A stretch of 64,000 nucleotides of DNA from Escherichia coli (GCF_003018115.1 NZ_CP027457.1), one strand, 5' to 3'. Positions 33,448 to 54,702 are shown, counted from the first letter of the stretch. Notes: a model not told the origin generated them from the letters alone. Translations and numbers: made by a program.

Positions 33448-34119
33448 ATGCAGTACCCGATTAACGAGATGTTCCAGACCCTGCAAGGTGAGGGTTACTT
33501 TACCGGCGTCCCCGCCATTTTTATTCGTTTACAGGGATGCCCGGTTGGCTGTGCCTGGTGCGACACCAAACACACCTGGGAAAAGCTTGAGGATCGGGAA
33601 GTCTCCCTTTTCAGCATTCTGGCGAAGACCAAAGAGAGTGATAAGTGGGGGGCGGCGAGCAGTGAAGATTTGCTGGCTGTCATTGGTCGTCAGGGATATA
33701 CCGCGTGGCATGTGGTGATTACGGGTGGTGAGCCTTGCATTCATGATTTGCTGCCACTGACTGACCTGCTCGAAAAGAACGGTTTTAGCTGCCAGATCGA
33801 AACCAGTGGGACTCATGAAGTACGCTGCACACCGAATACCTGGGTTACCGTATCACCAAAGCTGAACATGCGCGGCGGCTATGAAGTGTTGTCACAGGCA
33901 CTGGAGCGAGCCAACGAAATCAAGCATCCAGTGGGGCGCGTACGTGATATTGAAGCACTGGATGAACTACTGGCAACGCTGACCGATGATAAACCGCGAG
34001 TCATTGCACTGCAGCCGATTAGCCAAAAGGATGATGCCACACGTTTGTGCATTGAAACCTGCATTGCGCGTAATTGGCGTTTGTCGATGCAAACCCATAA
34101 ATATCTAAATATTGCCTGA
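33448..34119 (+). CDS. queE: 7-carboxy-7-deazaguanine synthase (radical SAM)
   Basis: 223-aa ORF with CPVGCAWC cluster; formerly ygcF. Confidence 0.88.
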   Translation: MQYPINEMFQTLQGEGYFTGVPAIFIRLQGCPVGCAWCDTKHTWEKLEDREVSLFSILAKTKESDKWGAASSEDLLAVIGRQGYTAWHVVITGGEPCIHDLLPLTDLLEKNGFSCQIETSGTHEVRCTPNTWVTVSPKLNMRGGYEVLSQALERANEIKHPVGRVRDIEALDELLATLTDDKPRVIALQPISQKDDATRLCIETCIARNWRLSMQTHKYLNIA

Positions 34120-34299
34120 TTAAACATTTATAAGCGTTATAAATGGGTGGAACCTGTAAAGACTTCTACTCATTTATATTGTTTGTCGCCTCTGAAAACT
34201 CCTCCATTTTCCCCATCCAGGGCTAATCATTAGCATTCTCTACAAATTCTGCGGCATTAATTTTTCGCTGGAGTGAAAATTATTGCGGCAAAGTTTGGT

Positions 34300-34458
34300 A
34301 GATTTTAGTTTGTATAGAGTTATTTTAAATATTTACCTTTTTAATCAATGGATTAAGCGCTCTTTAACATAATGGATGTGTTGTTTGTGTGATACTGTAA
34401 AGTTGGTAGATTGTGACTGGCTTAAAAAATCATTAATTAATAATAGGTTATGTTTAGA
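34300..34458 (+). promoter_or_regulatory. type I-E CRISPR leader (AT-rich, ends ...CTGGCTTAAAAAATCATTAATTAATAATAGGTTATGTTTAGA immediately before repeat 1)
   Basis: AT-rich segment directly upstream of the first full repeat; resembles the E. coli leader as recalled. Confidence 0.65.
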
Positions 34459-35219
34459 GAGTTCCCCGCGCCAGCGGGGATAAACCGAAAATTGGGACGC
34501 TAACTCATGGGTCTGGGTAGAGTTCCCCGCGCCAGCGGGGATAAACCGGGAAAAACGCCTGTGGTTGGGGCTGAACCAGGGAGTTCCCCGCGCCAGCGGG
34601 GATAAACCGTCGGCGCGCTCTCTGTAGAGCGGTTGTGTGATGAGTTCCCCGCGCCAGCGGGGATAAACCGTCGTCGGGTCCGACAGGGGTCGGTTGTTCG
34701 CCGAGTTCCCCGCGCCAGCGGGGATAAACCGGCTTAATAAACGAGGAGAATACCGATGTTTTTAAGTTCCCCGCGCCAGCGGGGATAAACCGTTCTTTTA
34801 ATGGCGTCAGGCCCATTACAGAGCGAGTTCCCCGCGCCAGCGGGGATAAACCGTTTTGACGATTATTCTAAAAGTGAAAATAGCAGAGTTCCCCGCGCCA
34901 GCGGGGATAAACCGCACGCTGGAGTGACCGGGTGGCAGAGCATGACGAGTTCCCCGCGCCAGCGGGGATAAACCGCCATTTCATCATGAACGGCGGAAAT
35001 ATCGTGGGAGTTCCCCGCGCCAGCGGGGATAAACCGGTCAGTTCCCGGTTGATATATATGATGAGCATGAGTTCCCCGCGCCAGCGGGGATAAACCGCGC
35101 AATGGCGCGGCGATTGCTCTCGAGATCAAGTGTTCCCCGCGCCAGCGGGGATAAACCGGGTACAAAAGAGGCCCCATTCTGGCAGGGCTCGAGTTCCCCG
35201 CGCCAGTGGGGATAAACCA
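34459..35219 (+). CRISPR. type I-E CRISPR array, 13 repeats and 12 spacers of 32 nt, repeat GAGTTCCCCGCGCCAGCGGGGATAAACCG
   Basis: Repeats start at 34459, 34520, 34581, 34642, 34703, 34764, 34825, 34886, 34947, 35008, 35069, 35130, 35191 (61-bp period); variants AAG.. at 34764 and GTG.. at 35130; last repeat degenerate (..CCAGTGGGGATAAACCA). Confidence 0.97.
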
Positions 35220-35672
35220 CCATATAACCCGTTATCTCTTTCTCAAGTTTTTATATTAGCTGTACTTGTAATAAGCAACATATCCACGTAACACCTCATG
35301 TTCATAATAGTTCCCCATGCCAGATAAGTTCACAATTATCGATACAAAAAATTAAAGTTAATCAAAGTGTTATTTGTATAATTCTTAAGCCGTTAAGAAA
35401 TTTTAATCTATTATTTTTTTAATATTAATTAATGCCTGTTAATTTTTTCTTTAGTATAACAGTGTGTTTTTTAAGCTTGTTATTCATTGATTAAGTAATA
35501 AATCTGGAAATTTGTCTTTGTTTTGAGGCTAATGAGTGGTTTTACATAACCGCCTCTATACGCTGTTGATGAATAGTTCTTATGAATAAAGATATCCAGT
35601 TCATACTTTAAGTGAAAATTGATAAAGTGCGATTCGTATTGTCTTTTATTCTAAAGACATCGAGTGTAGTTA

Positions 35673-35811
35673 ATATTCCTTGTAAAAACAGGGATAAACC
35701 GAACTAGTTGAAGTTTTTATTATGTTCCCTGCATCAGCGGGGATAAACCGGACTTGTTATCATTTTTTAAGTTGTCGAACTTATGTTCCCCGCGTCAGCG
35801 GGGATAACCAT
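35673..35811 (+). CRISPR. degenerate CRISPR remnant (partial repeat ending 35701; repeats at 35722-35750 and 35783-35811; one 32-nt spacer)
   Basis: ATGTTCCCTGCATCAGCGGGGATAAACCG and ATGTTCCCCGCGTCAGCGGGGATAACCAT with 61-bp period. Confidence 0.8.
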
Positions 35812-35856
35812 TCAGGTATGTTCAGGCCGGGCAGTTTCCCGCCCGGTCTTCCTCAC

Positions 35857-37335
35857 TTACGCATTCGACCAGCTCTGGATCGAATCCGCATTCCCCAATT
35901 CCCCATGCATCACTTCATACGATTTTTTCAGGATCACATCAGTATGTTTGGTTAGGGCTTTGAAAATACCTTTATTCATCGCGTCGTAGCGTTTGGCATT
36001 GCTCTCAACAGGCATAAAGATATCTTTCACGCGAACCATTTTGTCGACAGCCGTTGCGTAATCCGGGTATAGCCCCAGACCTACCGCCGTATTGATCGCT
36101 GCCCCCAGACTTGCACAACCGTTAATGGCGTTACGGCGTGCAGGAAGGTTGAACACGTCGGCAAAAATTTGCATAAATAGATCGCTGTTCGAACCGCCGC
36201 CAGTAATGATCACATGCTTTGCAAAGTGATTCATTTCATTACACATATTGTCGTAATTGTTCTTCAGCGTCAGCGCCACGCTTTCCAGTATCGAACGATA
36301 TATCCATGCGTAATCCATGCTGGAATCAAAGCCGATCATAATCCCACGTTTGTAGGGTTCCCACGGGTTGGTCAGCCAGTCCAGCACCGTCATCAGACCA
36401 TTACAGCCAGGCGGCACACAAGAAGCTTTTTTGTTGAGCAAATCTTCCGGTGAAAGATCCTGTGCTTTGGCATCCTGAATTAACGACTCGCCTAACATGT
36501 CGCGTAGCCAGCTCACCGTCCACATGCCTTTACGGATACCGTACCCTTCATACAGCAATGTTTCCGGAATAGAAGACATAATCGGCCAGTACGCCACCGG
36601 ATCTTTCGGCAGTGCTTTACCGTTCATCATCAGCGCGATGTAGGTGCCAAGAGAAATCACCGCCGTTTCATCATCCAGCAATCCGGCTCCCAGAGCTTCT
36701 ACCGGTTTATCACTGGTGGTACAAACAACCGGCAGCCCTGCCGGGAAATGTGTCGCCAGCGCGGCTTGAGGTGTGATCTGTCCAAGAACAGTGCCTGGCA
36801 TTTGCACATCAAACAGCATATGACGGGGGATATTAAACTTCTCCATGACTGCGGCATCTTCACTCCATGCCCAGCTCTTATAATCCACCGGCCACTGACC
36901 AAAATAGTTGGCGATATTGTCTTTAAACTCGCCGGTTAAGCGATGCGTCAGATAACCCGAAAAAGAGGTGACATATGCCACGTCAGGATTAGTGTGTTCG
37001 TAGGGACGCGTTACGCGTGCATCCTGCCAGCTAATCAATGGCGCAGCTGGCGTGCCATCGGCTTTCAATAACGCACGGCAGCAACGGATGGATCCCAGAC
37101 CAATACCGACAATATCTTCTTTATTCCCGGCAAACTGACTCATCAAATCGTGACCGGCAAAACATAATGATGCCCATAAATCGTCGTCAGGATGTTCTGC
37201 GGTATCGGCATCTGGCGTGTGCATCGGCTGCAATAAGCCTTTACCTTCGCAAACCACATTACCTTCCAGATCGTACATCACCACTTTTGTGCTCTGACTT
37301 CCGCCATCAATCCCTATGATGTATTTTTTCGACAT
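35857..37335 (-). CDS. ygcE: FGGY-family carbohydrate kinase
   Basis: 492-aa ORF MSKKYIIGIDGGSQSTKVVMYD... Confidence 0.8.
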   Translation of the reverse strand: MSKKYIIGIDGGSQSTKVVMYDLEGNVVCEGKGLLQPMHTPDADTAEHPDDDLWASLCFAGHDLMSQFAGNKEDIVGIGLGSIRCCRALLKADGTPAAPLISWQDARVTRPYEHTNPDVAYVTSFSGYLTHRLTGEFKDNIANYFGQWPVDYKSWAWSEDAAVMEKFNIPRHMLFDVQMPGTVLGQITPQAALATHFPAGLPVVCTTSDKPVEALGAGLLDDETAVISLGTYIALMMNGKALPKDPVAYWPIMSSIPETLLYEGYGIRKGMWTVSWLRDMLGESLIQDAKAQDLSPEDLLNKKASCVPPGCNGLMTVLDWLTNPWEPYKRGIMIGFDSSMDYAWIYRSILESVALTLKNNYDNMCNEMNHFAKHVIITGGGSNSDLFMQIFADVFNLPARRNAINGCASLGAAINTAVGLGLYPDYATAVDKMVRVKDIFMPVESNAKRYDAMNKGIFKALTKHTDVILKKSYEVMHGELGNADSIQSWSNA

Positions 37336-52261: not shown

Positions 52262-54358
52262 ATGCGTAAATATCCTTTAAGTTTACTGAAGGATAAAAAT
52301 ATTGTGACTTTTTTTGATTTCTGGGGAAAAACCCGACGCGGCGAGAAAGACGGGGGCGACGACTATCACCTTCTTTGCTGGCATTCGCTGGATGTAGCCG
52401 CGATGGGCTATTTAATGGTTAAAAGAAATTGCTTCGGGCTGGCTGATTATTTTCGTCAATTAGGGATTTCTGACAAGGAACAGGCGGCTCAATTTTTCGC
52501 CTGGTTGCTGTGCTGGCACGATATTGGAAAATTTGCCCGCTCTTTTCAACAACTTTACCTGCCCCCTGAACTCAAGATTCAGGAAAGTGCCAGAAAAAAT
52601 TACGAAAAAATCTCTCATTCAACGCTGGGCTACTGGTTGTGGAATCATTATTTAAGTGAATGTCAGGAGTTACTTCCTTCATCTTCGCTCTCTCCGCGCA
52701 AACTTAGGCGAGTGATAGAAATGTGGATGCCCGTGACGACAGGGCATCATGGTCGGCCCCCTGATCGTATGGATGAATTGGATAATTTTCTGCCTGAAGA
52801 CAAAGCTGCAGCACGAGATTTTCTCCTTGAAATCAAACCACTGTTTCCGCTCATAGAGATCCCCGCATTCTGGGATGATGATGAGGGCATTGAACTTATA
52901 AAACACCTTTCCTGGTATATCTCTGCAACCGTCGTGCTCGCAGACTGGACGGGTTCGTCAACGCGATTTTTTCCACGCGTCGCACACCCAATGGATATTA
53001 AAGGTTACTGGCAGAAAACTTTAATTCAGGCTCAAAACGCCTTAACCGTCTTTCCTCTAAAAGCAAAAGTCGCGCCTTTCAACGGAATTAATACGCTGTT
53101 TCCTTTTATTGAGAATCCGACACCGTTACAGCAAAAGGTGCTGGATCTGGATATCAGCCAGCAAGGACCGCAGTTATTTATTCTGGAAGATGTGACTGGC
53201 GCAGGTAAAACAGAAGCGGCGCTTATCCTGGCGCACAGGTTGATAGCTGCGGGGAAAGCTCAGGGGCTGTTTTTTGGTCTGCCAACAATGGCAACGGCCA
53301 ATGCCATGTACGATCGGCTGGTCAAAACCTGGCTTGCTTTCTATTCGCCAGAATCCCGCCCCAGCCTGGTGCTGGCACATAGTGCCCGCACATTAATGGA
53401 CCGCTTTAATGAATCACTCTGGTCTGGTGATTTAGTCGGGTCAGAAGAACCGGATGAACAAACGTTCAGTCAGGGATGTGCGGCCTGGTTTGCCGACAGT
53501 AACAAGAAGGCGTTGCTGGCTGAAATTGGCGTCGGCACGCTGGATCAGGCGATAATGGCGGTGATGCCGTTCAAACATAATAATCTGCGGCTTCTGGGGC
53601 TGAGTAACAAAATCCTGCTGGCTGATGAGATCCACGCCTGTGACGCTTACATGTCGTGCATTCTTGAAGGGTTGATCGAGCGGCAGGCGCGTGGCGGAAA
53701 CAGCGTTATTTTGCTTTCTGCCACGTTATCTCAACAGCAGCGCGACAAACTCGTCGCTGCCTTTGCGCGGGGTACAGAGGGCCAGCAAGAAGCTCCGTTC
53801 CTGGAAAAGGATGATTACCCCTGGCTGACGCATGTCACGAAATCCGATGTGAACTCACACCGGGTAGCGACGCGCAAAGACGTTGAGCGTAGCGTCAGCG
53901 TGGGTTGGCTTCATAGTGAACAAGAGTGTATTGCGCGTATCGAATCGGCGGTAAGTCAGGGGAAATGCATCGCCTGGATCCGGAATTCTGTCGATGACGC
54001 TATTAAGGTTCATCGTCAGCTGCTTGCCCGCGGCGTCATTCCTGCTTCCAGCCTTTCACTTTTTCATAGCCGCTTTGCTTTTAGCGATCGCCAGCGAATT
54101 GAAACGGAAACGCTGGCACGCTTTGGTAAATATTGTAGTTTACAGAGAGCGTCGCAAGTCATTGTTTGTACACAAGTAATTGAGCAAAGCGTGGATATTG
54201 ACCTGGACGAAATGATCTCCGACCTGGCCCCTGTTGATTTGCTGATTCAGCGAGCAGGACGATTACAGCGGCATATCCGCGATATTAATGGTCAGTTAAA
54301 GCGTGACGTGTTCCCCGCGCCAGCGGGGATAAACCGGGTACACGGATATTCTGTCTAA
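52262..54358 (+). pseudogene. cas3: cas3 (type I-E), truncated at its 3' end: about 682 codons of Cas3 fused in frame to a CRISPR repeat at 54307/54308
   Basis: HD motifs (HSLDVAAM, WHDIGKF), Walker A (TGAGKTEAA), DEIH box (LADEIHACD), motif VI (QRAGRLQRH); the final 17 ORF codons (VFPAPAGINRVHGYSV) translate repeat and spacer. Confidence 0.85.
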
Positions 54359-54702
54359 AAGTTAACTAGTGTTCCCCGCGCCAGCGGGGATAAACCGACT
54401 GATAACGCCGGAGCCTTCTTTTTCAGCAAGTGTTCCCCGCGCCAGCGGGGATAAACCGAGGTTGACGTTGATTTTGTTCGTTATGTTGCCGTGTTCCCCG
54501 CGCCAGCGGGGATAAACCGACCTCGACAATGACACGGGCGCGAAAACAATCGTGTTCCCCGCGCCAGCGGGGATAAACCGTCGGTGGCTGGATTGAAAAA
54601 GAAGATAATCTGGTGTTCCCCGCGTCAGCGGGGATAAACCGGGCGCACTGGATGCGATGATGGATATCACTTAGAATTCCCCGCCCCTGCGGTAGAACTC
54701 CC
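54308..54702 (+). CRISPR. type I-E CRISPR array, 7 repeats and 6 spacers, repeat GTGTTCCCCGCGCCAGCGGGGATAAACCG; no leader
   Basis: Repeats start at 54308, 54369, 54430, 54491, 54552, 54613 (GCGTCAG variant) and 54674 (degenerate terminal repeat); spacers 32 nt. Confidence 0.96.

What the first reader, a model, noticed from the sequence alone, without database searches (positions are those of the whole stretch)
35673..35811. Degenerate repeat-spacer remnant beside ygcE, separated from the main array by about 450 bp of AT-rich DNA
A partial repeat end (..CAGGGATAAACCG, to 35701) is followed by two mutated repeats at 35722 and 35783 that keep the 61-bp register, with one 32-nt spacer between them. 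This looks like the decayed end of a once longer or separate array. The ORF track calls overlapping ORFs here that are artefacts.
Basis: seen in the sequence. Interest (0 to 1): 0.3.

Follow-up and report, generated by a model that had tools for sequence, protein, structure and literature searches.

The report
Known E. coli CRISPR2.2 mini-array remnant
This is the small, degenerate, already described "CRISPR2.2" array that most E. coli carry next to ygcE: a fixed old tail of the ygcE-queE CRISPR locus. It is ordinary, and it cannot work as immunity in this strain because the Cascade and Cas1-Cas2 genes are deleted.

Summary
Three type I-E repeat copies lie at 35673-35701, 35722-35750 and 35783-35811. 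They match the 29-nt consensus at 18, 24 and 23 positions; no 29-mer outside the arrays exceeds 19. They are separated by a 20-nt and a 32-nt spacer. A 453-bp block of 28% G+C separates them from the 13-repeat main array.

[quoted passage not shown] About 4,100 of 5,426 complete E. coli genomes carry it. RefSeq never annotates it.

The last repeat is orthologous to the terminal repeat of the single ygcE-queE array in E. albertii, E. whittamii and B2-type E. coli. The remnant is therefore the old trailer end of that locus.

The first copy is a full repeat that still forms the Cas6e-type hairpin, not just a partial end. The AT-rich block has no sequence similarity to the functional leaders, and its left edge holds further decayed repeats. 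This strain has lost cse1 to cas2, so the arrays are orphans.

One loose end: the remnant plus 107 nt upstream is far more conserved across E. coli than the flanking DNA, including ygcE coding sequence. Verdict: already known, low interest.

The parts
33448..34119 (+). queE (ygcF), the left flanking gene of the CRISPR-II locus
   Evidence: ORF. Annotated queE in strain F9792 and K-12. Radical SAM match.
34120..34458 (+). Leader 2.3, the AT-rich leader of the main array
   Evidence: Lies directly upstream of the first repeat. Identity to E69 is 93% and to E. albertii 92.6%. Its last 60 nt match K-12 leader 2.1 at 37/60.
34459..35219 (+). Main type I-E array (CRISPR2.3): 13 repeats and 12 spacers, with a slightly degenerate last repeat at 35191-35219
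   Evidence: Annotated 'CRISPR' in RefSeq.
35220..35672 (+). AT-rich block (28% G+C) that splits the locus. Its left edge holds decayed repeat units: 35252-35280, and a 5' half-repeat at 35308-35323. The middle (35283-35470) is hypervariable. The right 107 nt is invariant in E. coli.
   Evidence: No phage or true plasmid homologue.
35641..35658 (+). Small hairpin (6-bp stem) inside the invariant part of the block. Pairing is kept in divergent lineages, but the support is not statistically significant.
35673..35701 (+). R1, a strongly diverged but full-length repeat (ATATTCCTTGTAAAAACAGGGATAAACCG, 18/29)
   Evidence: Hairpin retained. Identical in E69 and in all 89 metagenome matches, although those were retrieved using its own 26-nt core as the search pattern.
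35702..35721 (+). Spacer 1, only 20 nt. The G at 35710 is private to this lineage; it is A elsewhere.
35722..35750 (+). R2, a degenerate repeat (24/29). Its base states are a mosaic of R1-like and canonical states.
35751..35782 (+). Spacer 2, 32 nt, AT-rich, with no identifiable protospacer
35783..35811 (+). R3, the terminal repeat (23/29, with a degenerate 3' end ATAACCAT). It is orthologous to the terminal repeat of the array in other Escherichia species.
35824..35849 (.). G+C-rich hairpin between R3 and the ygcE stop codon, probably the ygcE terminator
   Evidence: Present in all Escherichia loci examined, including one with no CRISPR at all.
35857..37335 (-). ygcE (FGGY-family sugar kinase), the right flanking gene
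52262..54358 (+). Truncated cas3, fused at 54308 to the first repeat of CRISPR2.1. Genes cse1 to cas2 and leader 2.1 are missing, so there is no Cascade, Cas6e or Cas1-Cas2 in this window, and the deletion removes them from their normal locus.

Best explanation
The feature is CRISPR2.2 of Escherichia coli. It is the fixed, degenerate trailer-end mini-array of the ygcE-queE (CRISPR-II) type I-E locus, with the layout R1, 20-nt spacer, R2, 32-nt spacer, R3.

R3 is the ancestral terminal repeat of the locus. R1 and R2 are old units that stopped being renewed. A 453-bp AT-rich block separates them from the leader-proximal, still-variable array (CRISPR2.3), and the left edge of that block is itself made of decayed repeat-spacer units.

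How it behaves, by inference:

- No recognisable I-E leader precedes R1, so the mini-array cannot receive new spacers. This fits its invariant spacers.
- All three repeats still fold into the 7-bp/4-nt hairpin that Cas6e recognises, and R1 and R2 keep the exact AUAAACCG 5' handle. If the region is transcribed in a cas-positive strain (read-through from leader 2.3 or an unmapped promoter), spacer 2 at least could be cut out as a crRNA.
- In this strain that cannot happen. A deletion fuses cas3 codon 683 to a CRISPR2.1 repeat and removes cse1 to cas2, so the remnant is inert as immunity.

Its only plausible present role is structural, as the 'anchor' idea from the literature proposes. Under that idea, degenerate terminal repeats resist loss of the whole array through repeat-repeat recombination and mark the locus.
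For: - **Identity of the window and locus.** The query stretches tested match E. coli F9792 at 100% (one mismatch in leader 2.3), and the gene order is queE / array / ygcE. K-12 has the same remnant.
[quoted passage not shown] CRISPR2.2 and 2.3 are 'separated by 0.5 kb', or merged as CRISPR2.2-3, and leaders are reported only next to 2.1 and 2.3 (PMC3903273 and PMC3737337). [quoted passage not shown]
- **Repeat similarity.** It lies far above background.
- **Distribution.** 4,125 of 5,426 complete genomes hold at least 80% of 35660-35856. About 400 more hold only part of it; those examined (for example Nissle 1917) keep only R3 onward, and one has an IS1 next to R2.
- **Orthology of R3.** R3 and the downstream hairpin are found in E. 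albertii, E. whittamii and Escherichia sp. MOD1-EC7003, where R3 ends a continuous array with no block.
- **Decayed units in the block.** In the divergent strain E69 a recognisable degenerate repeat sits exactly 61 nt after the last canonical repeat. It aligns to window 35252-35280. The segment 35308-35323 matches the 5' half of the repeat at 13/16, and only 3 such sites occur in about 125,000 positions.
- **No leader.** The block scores at chance against leader 2.3 and leader 2.1. The last 60 nt match at 20/60 and 13/60. The positive control, leader 2.1 against leader 2.3, gives 37/60 and a local score reached by only 2 of 300 shuffles.
- **Hairpins.** All three repeats fold into the same hairpin.
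- **Recombination between repeats seen directly.** Strain 134 has a 61-nt deletion. E69 and some metagenome contigs have a form 49 nt shorter. B2-type strains have the merged form.
- **Loss of cas genes.**. The same deletion is described in PMC5359238.
Against: - **Conservation is too strong for an inert relic.** The remnant plus 107 nt upstream is at least 99% identical in 3,536 of 4,163 genomes. An equal-length piece of ygcE coding DNA reaches that level in 46 of 5,371 genomes, and the middle of the block in 5 of 4,115. A purely vestigial element should drift. This hints at constraint, or at an unknown homogenising process.
- **R1 may have evolved under constraint.** All five of its stem substitutions preserve pairing. 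That outcome has p of about 0.006 under random substitutions, but 0.13-0.16 under transitions only.
- **Insertion or ancestral block is unresolved.** It is not settled whether the block was inserted into a once continuous array, or is ancestral and was lost repeatedly.
- **Expression is untested.** Transcription and processing were not tested. The consensus scan found only one weak plus-strand promoter-like site in the block (35329-35358, 9 of 12 matches), with counts at shuffle level, and no terminator between the arrays. The same scan also missed the known leader promoter.
Confidence: 0.82

Rival explanations
1. CRISPR2.2 was once an independent array, and the conserved right half of the AT-rich block (about 35470-35672) is its own now-defunct leader. 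On this view two tandem leader-array units sit in the locus. The single arrays of B2 strains and other Escherichia species arose by deletion between a 2.3 repeat and R3.
For: - The block lies exactly where a leader would be and is AT-rich.
- Conservation rises towards R1. Identity to E69 is 55-75% on the left and 88-97% near R1, and the last 107 nt are invariant in E. coli.
- E. coli leaders 2.1 and 2.3 are described as very different from each other (PMC2886076), so lack of similarity is weak evidence.
- Repeat-repeat deletions are directly observed.
Against: - There is no similarity to either functional I-E leader, even in the repeat-proximal 60 nt where 2.1 and 2.3 share 37/60.
- The literature reports leaders only for 2.1 and 2.3.
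- The repeat next to a leader is normally the most canonical one, whereas R1 is the most diverged.
- The spacers are invariant.
- In the outgroups, leader 2.3 is joined directly to an array that ends in R3.
Confidence: 0.12
2. The mini-array and its 107-nt upstream region form a selectively maintained plus-strand RNA element. It could be a crRNA-like regulatory guide, comparable to the crRNA-resembling CreA/CreR RNAs known from other type I systems. Alternatively it could be a DNA 'anchor' kept because it stabilises the locus.
For: - There is an island of extreme conservation amid diverse flanks.
- All three repeat hairpins are intact, and R1 and R2 carry the exact 5' handle.
- A small hairpin at 35641-35658 keeps pairing in divergent lineages through a U-A, then U.G, then C-G series and through wobbles that are valid only on the plus strand.
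- The region as RNA folds with a z-score of -6.4.
- The anchor idea is in the literature (PMC3903273).
Against: - The covariation is not significant: 145 of 500 shuffles do as well.
- The element is retained unchanged in strains without cas genes, including this one.
- The consensus promoter scan found no convincing promoter (one weak plus-strand site at 35329-35358, counts at shuffle level), and there is no Rfam hit.
- No target was found in the K-12 cas region or in this window. The only 9/10 seed match in the cas3-casA spacer has no PAM and is at chance level.
- There is no protospacer in phages or plasmids.
- The ygcE-ygcF interval is used as a neutral integration site in K-12 (PMC2847246).
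- B2 strains and many others do without it.
Confidence: 0.1
3. The resemblance to CRISPR repeats is chance similarity in AT-rich intergenic DNA.
For: R1 taken alone (18/29) is within the range of the best background 29-mers.
Against: - R2 and R3 score 24 and 23 of 29, against a background maximum of 19.
- R2 and R3 are spaced exactly 61 nt apart.
- The element lies in the same orientation as the main array and next to it.
- R3 is orthologous to terminal repeats in other species.
Confidence: 0.01

Closest known systems
CRISPR2.2 array of E. coli (nomenclature of Diez-Villasenor et al. 2010, as quoted in PMC4489801, PMC3903273 and PMC3737337)
   Same: It has the same position between ygcE and queE/ygcF, three repeats with two invariant spacers, and lies 0.5 kb from CRISPR2.3. 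No leader has been reported for it. The sequence is identical to K-12 except for one base in spacer 1 and one in the downstream hairpin.
   Different: Nothing material differs. This strain has a private A-to-G change at 35710 and lacks the Cascade genes.
CRISPR2.2-3 merged array (B2-phylogroup E. coli such as LF82; also E. albertii and E. whittamii)
   Same: It has the same leader 2.3, the same terminal repeat R3 (…GTCAGCGGGGATAACCAT) and the same downstream hairpin.
   Different: The merged form lacks the AT-rich block, R1, R2 and both fixed spacers. Here all of these are present.
Degenerate terminal ('anchor') repeats of CRISPR arrays (Almendros et al. 2014, PMC3903273)
   Same: The units are leader-distal, mutated and species-wide conserved. 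They are proposed to resist loss of the whole array by recombination. CRISPR2.1 in this window ends in such a repeat at 54674.
   Different: Here there are three degenerate repeats, not one, and they are detached from the array by 453 bp.
crRNA-resembling regulatory RNAs (CreA of CreTA modules; CreR) in type I systems (recalled from my own knowledge, not checked in the library)
   Same: Both consist of degenerate repeats flanking a short or fixed spacer that is conserved rather than variable.
   Different: No partially matching target with a PAM was found, nor a promoter of its own. The element persists in cas-less strains. It is not filed as a member.

Membership tests
E. coli CRISPR2.2 (CRISPR-II locus) | Located between ygcE and queE (ygcF), on the ygcE side | tested here: met
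E. coli CRISPR2.2 (CRISPR-II locus) | Three type-2 (I-E) repeats and two spacers that do not vary between strains | tested here: met
   The three repeats are shown. The spacers are identical in 10 strains and in most of 82 metagenome contigs, except for 35710.
E. coli CRISPR2.2 (CRISPR-II locus) | Separated from CRISPR2.3 by about 0.5 kb of AT-rich DNA | tested here: met
   The gap is 453 nt at 28% G+C.
Functional type I-E CRISPR array | Direct repeats matching the 29-nt I-E consensus, with the Cas6e stem-loop | tested here: met
   The repeats match at 18, 24 and 23 of 29. All three fold into the 7-bp stem and 4-nt loop.
Functional type I-E CRISPR array | Regular 61-nt period (29-nt repeat plus 32-nt spacer) | tested here: inconclusive
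   R2 to R3 is 61 nt, but R1 to R2 is 49 nt because spacer 1 is 20 nt.
Functional type I-E CRISPR array | Leader with the conserved repeat-proximal sequence needed for transcription and integration | tested here: not met
   There is no similarity to leader 2.3 or 2.1. The control comparison of the two leaders is significant.
Functional type I-E CRISPR array | Strain-to-strain spacer turnover at the leader end | tested here: not met
   Spacer content is invariant. The only variants are deletions.
Functional type I-E CRISPR array | Cognate cas genes present (Cas6e/Cascade, Cas1-Cas2) | tested here: not met
   In this window cas3 is truncated and fused to a repeat, and cse1 to cas2 are absent from the locus.
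Functional type I-E CRISPR array | Transcription and processing into crRNA | not testable with these tools
   This needs RNA data. The consensus scans found no convincing promoter and no terminator between the arrays.
crRNA-like regulatory RNA (CreA/CreR type) | Partial complementarity of the pseudo-spacer to a promoter next to a PAM | tested here: inconclusive
   Only the K-12 cas region (12 kb) and this window were scanned. No PAM-flanked match was found. The whole genome was not scanned.
crRNA-like regulatory RNA (CreA/CreR type) | Co-occurrence with, and dependence on, cas genes | tested here: not met
   The element is kept intact in this cas-deleted strain. The literature says BL21 also keeps it without cas genes.

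The most novel reading that the evidence does not exclude
The 246-nt island at 35566-35811 (107 nt upstream plus R1 to R3) may be held nearly invariant across E. coli by selection. The reason could be that it yields a plus-strand structured RNA, such as a fixed crRNA-like guide or other small RNA. Alternatively it could act as a DNA anchor that protects the CRISPR-II locus from complete loss. On this reading it is not a neutral relic.
Probability: 0.1. Interest if true: 0.5.

Novelty: already known. Interest (0 to 1): 0.12.

Why it matters
It matters little as a discovery. CRISPR2.2 has been described since 2010 and is present in about three quarters of complete E. coli genomes.

There are two practical points.

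- RefSeq/PGAP never annotates it, so automated CRISPR calls and ORF callers will keep reporting spurious ORFs or 'novel remnants' here.
- Its near-invariance amid very diverse flanks makes it a convenient fixed landmark for CRISPR-II typing. It also raises the still unanswered question of why old trailer-end units are preserved so faithfully.

Tried and rejected
1. **Split-repeat hypothesis.** I considered that 35308-35323 (5' half) and 35689-35701 (3' part) were one repeat split by a 365-bp insertion. I rejected this because 35673-35701 folds as a complete repeat hairpin, and because E69 shows an in-register decayed repeat at the left edge of the block.
2. **The whole block as eight decayed 61-nt units.** R1 lies 482 nt after the last canonical repeat here and 489 nt after it in E69, close to 8 x 61. 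However, rows 2-7 show no repeat signal, and a phase analysis is flat. This remains unproven.
3. **Leader homology.** The block shows none to leader 2.3 or 2.1.
4. **Mobile-element or foreign origin of the block.** It is single-copy in each genome and has no phage homologue. The only 'plasmid' hits are mislabelled chromosomes.
5. **Protospacer for spacer 2.** None was found below E = 0.3 in phages. The plasmid hits are the locus itself.
6. **Known RNA families.** None was found.
7. **Small ORF at 35612-35707 (31 aa).** I rejected it. Against E69, 7 of 8 changed codons are non-synonymous, and the stop codon lies in spacer 1, which E69 lacks.
8. **CreR-like targeting of the cas promoter.** The only hit is a PAM-less 9/10 seed match 37 nt past the cas3 stop codon, which is at chance level.
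9. **Spacer 1 as a truncated duplicate of spacer 2.** The 46-nt units match at 72%. But the spacer part matches only 11/20, against about 7 expected for this composition (my estimate, not computed). It is suggestive only.
10. **Selection on the R1 stem.** The p-value is 0.006 under random substitutions but 0.13-0.16 under a transitions-only model. This is not decisive.
11. **The original 2010 paper.** It is not in the library. It is cited here only through papers that quote it.

Full report
**What is in the sequence**

Reading 34200-36400 shows the following layout:

| Coordinates | Feature |
|---|---|
| to 34458 | AT-rich leader |
| 34459-35219 | 13 copies of GAGTTCCCCGCGCCAGCGGGGATAAACCG, spaced 61 nt apart |
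| 35220-35672 | 453 nt of 28% G+C DNA |
| 35673-35701 | R1, ATATTCCTTGTAAAAACAGGGATAAACCG |
| 35702-35721 | spacer 1, 20 nt |
| 35722-35750 | R2, ATGTTCCCTGCATCAGCGGGGATAAACCG |
| 35751-35782 | spacer 2, 32 nt |
| 35783-35811 | R3, ATGTTCCCCGCGTCAGCGGGGATAACCAT |
| 35824-35849 | G+C-rich hairpin |
| 35857 onward | stop codon end of a 492-aa minus-strand ORF |

The repeat finder puts R2 and R3 in the same family and register as the main array. It also reports a 46-nt, 72% direct repeat with a 49-nt offset that links R1 plus spacer 1 to R2 plus the start of spacer 2.

**Is it more than chance?**

- R1, R2 and R3 match the consensus at 18, 24 and 23 of 29 positions.
- Among 125,050 29-mers on both strands outside the arrays the mean is 7.3 and the maximum is 19. 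One of the 19s is the genuine degenerate terminal repeat of the second array at 54674.
- The exact 11-mer GGGATAAACCG occurs nowhere else in the window outside the arrays.

There is one correction. R1 is a whole repeat, not a fragment. As RNA it forms the same 7-bp stem and 4-nt loop as the consensus, with two C-G to U-A double changes and one G.U wobble.

**Identity**

- The window matches E. coli strain F9792 at 100% over each stretch tested (the 339-nt leader shows one mismatch). The flanking genes are queE and ygcE.
- K-12 MG1655 has the same remnant, with two base differences.
- The literature names it:
[quoted passage not shown] - The original 2010 description is not in the library.

The feature is therefore already known.

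**Distribution**

- Of 5,426 complete E. coli genomes, 4,125 hold at least 80% of 35660-35856.
- About 400 more hold only part of it. The ones listed (for example Nissle 1917) keep only R3 onward. One has an IS1 abutting R2.
- The rest lack it. In one strain the region is replaced by a sucrose-utilisation locus.
- In every RefSeq record I opened, the 'CRISPR' feature stops at the last CRISPR2.3 repeat. CRISPR2.2 is never annotated.

**Evolutionary reading**

I used YgcE to fetch the locus from one genome per species. I scanned 32 of the 80 loci returned, the enterobacterial ones plus a few others, for repeats downstream of ygcE.

- Repeats immediately downstream of ygcE occur only in Escherichia. 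Klebsiella spallanzanii has a canonical array about 3.3 kb further away.
- In E. albertii the arrangement is leader 2.3 (92.6% identical), then two repeats, then a terminal repeat GGGTTCTCCGCGTCAGCGGGGATAACCAT, followed by the same hairpin.
- E. whittamii has leader 2.3 and only that terminal repeat.
- An unnamed Escherichia species has an array ending in a truncated copy of it.
- A B2-type E. coli has leader, repeat, spacer and R3.

R3 is therefore the ancestral terminal repeat of the locus.

The block and R1 are found only in E. coli and in one divergent lineage, 'E. coli E69'. E69 is a separate species representative. Its ygcE is 92.8% identical to the window's at the nucleotide level and 81% at third codon positions.

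- E69 has R1 (identical), then spacer 2 (30/32), then R3. It lacks the 49-nt spacer 1 plus R2 unit.
- E69 also has a recognisable degenerate repeat (TCGTTCCCTGTATCAGCAATAAATAACAT) exactly 61 nt after its last canonical repeat. It aligns with window 35252-35280, which has decayed beyond recognition.
- The window keeps a 13/16 match to the 5' half of the repeat at 35308-35323. Only 3 such sites occur in about 125,000 positions, and one of those is a true terminal repeat.

The left edge of the 'AT-rich block' is thus old array. The origin of the remainder is unknown. It has no phage or true plasmid homologue and is single-copy. I cannot decide between two histories: one insertion into a continuous array, or an ancestral block lost repeatedly by repeat-repeat recombination. 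Such deletions are directly visible:

- 61 nt in strain 134;
- 49 nt in E69 and a few metagenome contigs;
- the merged B2 form.

The block resembles a leader only in composition.

- Local alignment to leader 2.3 scores 22, against a shuffle mean of 23.3 ± 3.0.
- Against K-12 leader 2.1 the score is also at chance.
- The 60 nt before R1 match the two leaders at 13/60 and 20/60.
- The two real leaders match each other at 37/60, with a local score reached by 2 of 300 shuffles.
- The consensus scan finds one weak plus-strand promoter-like site in the block (35329-35358, 9 of 12 matches). Overall counts are at shuffle level, and the same scan misses the known leader promoter.
- No Rfam family matches.

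**Function in this strain**

- The second array (54308-54702: seven repeats, six spacers) abuts a 698-aa cas3 ORF that runs straight into the first repeat. The iap gene follows it.
- cse1 to cas2 and leader 2.1 are gone.
- The junction at codon 683 occurs in 13 of 5,426 genomes. It matches a deletion described for O156:H8 isolates (PMC5359238).
- Without Cas6e, Cascade and Cas1-Cas2, neither array can be processed or extended here.

In cas-positive strains, the established I-E processing rule is that Cas6e cuts at the 3' base of the hairpin and leaves an 8-nt AUAAACCG handle. By that rule spacer 2 could be released as a normal 61-nt crRNA if the region is transcribed. This is an inference and was not shown. 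Spacer 2 has no detectable protospacer.

**The loose end**

The segment 35566-35811 is far more conserved than its surroundings.

In ten diverse strains:

| Segment | Segregating sites |
|---|---|
| 107 nt before R1 | 0 of 107 |
| R1-R3 | 4 of 139 |
| middle of the block | 36 of 188 |
| 3' end of ygcE | 23 of 234 |

With equal 246-nt queries against the complete genomes:

| Query | Genomes at least 99% identical to the window |
|---|---|
| island, 35566-35811 | 3,536 of 4,163 |
| block middle, 35283-35528 | 5 of 4,115 |
| ygcE 3' coding, 35857-36102 | 46 of 5,371 |

Further points:

- In metagenome contigs, 76 of 88 are identical over the 107 nt.
- A 6-bp hairpin at 35641-35658 keeps pairing in the divergent lineages through U-A, then U.G, then C-G. 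The formal count is not significant, since 145 of 500 shuffles do as well.
- A 31-aa ORF in the island is not supported by its substitution pattern.
- No PAM-flanked partial target for either spacer was found in the K-12 cas region or in this window.
- The ygcE-ygcF interval tolerates insertions in laboratory K-12.

The published 'anchor' idea for degenerate terminal repeats is the only existing proposal that would give the element a role. I leave the conservation unexplained.

**Verdict**

The feature is the known CRISPR2.2 mini-array, an orphan in this strain. Interest is low. The only non-trivial residue is its unusually strong sequence conservation.

Noticed in passing
window 52262-54702: cas3 is truncated at codon 683 and fused directly to the first repeat of the iap-side array (CRISPR2.1: seven repeats, six spacers). 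Genes cse1 to cas2 and leader 2.1 are deleted. The junction is present in only 13 of 5,426 complete genomes. It matches a deletion reported for O156:H8 isolates (PMC5359238).
   Followed up: yes
window 35566-35811: An island of near-invariance covers the 107 nt upstream of R1 plus CRISPR2.2, set among very diverse flanks. It is at least 99% identical in 3,536 of 4,163 genomes. The figure is 5 of 4,115 for the block middle and 46 of 5,371 for ygcE coding DNA. The cause is unknown.
   Followed up: partly
window 35283-35470: The middle of the AT-rich block is hypervariable. It shows haplotype-like variation among E. coli (pi about 0.08 in ten strains). Identity to E69 is only 55-75%, which is below the 81% seen at ygcE third codon positions.
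   Followed up: partly
window 35252-35280 and 35308-35323; L007 (E69): There are further decayed repeat units at the left edge of the block. E69 has a recognisable degenerate repeat exactly 61 nt after its last canonical repeat, aligned to 35252-35280. The window keeps a 13/16 match to the 5' half of the repeat at 35308-35323.
   Followed up: yes
window 35641-35658: A small 6-bp hairpin has substitutions in divergent lineages (L136, L177, L133, E69) that follow a U-A, then U.G, then C-G path. The additional wobble pairs are valid only on the plus strand. The support is not statistically significant.
   Followed up: yes
window 35673-35770: R1 plus spacer 1 (49 nt) resembles R2 plus the first 20 nt of spacer 2 (72% over 46 nt). 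R2 is a mosaic of R1-like and canonical base states. E69 and a few metagenome contigs have R1, spacer 2 and R3 without this 49-nt unit. This suggests either a duplication or recombination origin for the unit, or its recurrent deletion.
   Followed up: partly
window 35710: The G in spacer 1 is private to this lineage. The base is A in K-12, in nine other strains, and in all but one of the full-length metagenome contigs (those in which spacer 1 is present).
   Followed up: yes
L094 (NCTC9967), L005 (strain 134), L004 (SCU-484), L035: Several structural variants of the locus were seen. NCTC9967 has an IS1 abutting R2. Strain 134 has a 61-nt deletion that removes one repeat-spacer unit. In SCU-484 a sucrose (scr) gene cluster replaces the whole CRISPR-II region. 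One Escherichia lineage has queE and ygcE with no CRISPR between them at all.
   Followed up: partly
RefSeq records L001, L087-L093: The PGAP 'CRISPR' feature always ends at the last CRISPR2.3 repeat. CRISPR2.2 is not annotated in any record examined, which is why ORF callers report spurious ORFs starting at the ATG of R2 and R3.
   Followed up: yes
window 35824-35849; L035 5490-5520: The hairpin after the ygcE stop codon is conserved across Escherichia. In the CRISPR-less lineage it has a different but still self-complementary stem (GAGCGGGCGG…CCGCCCGCTC). This is consistent with a ygcE terminator that is independent of the CRISPR remnant.
   Followed up: no
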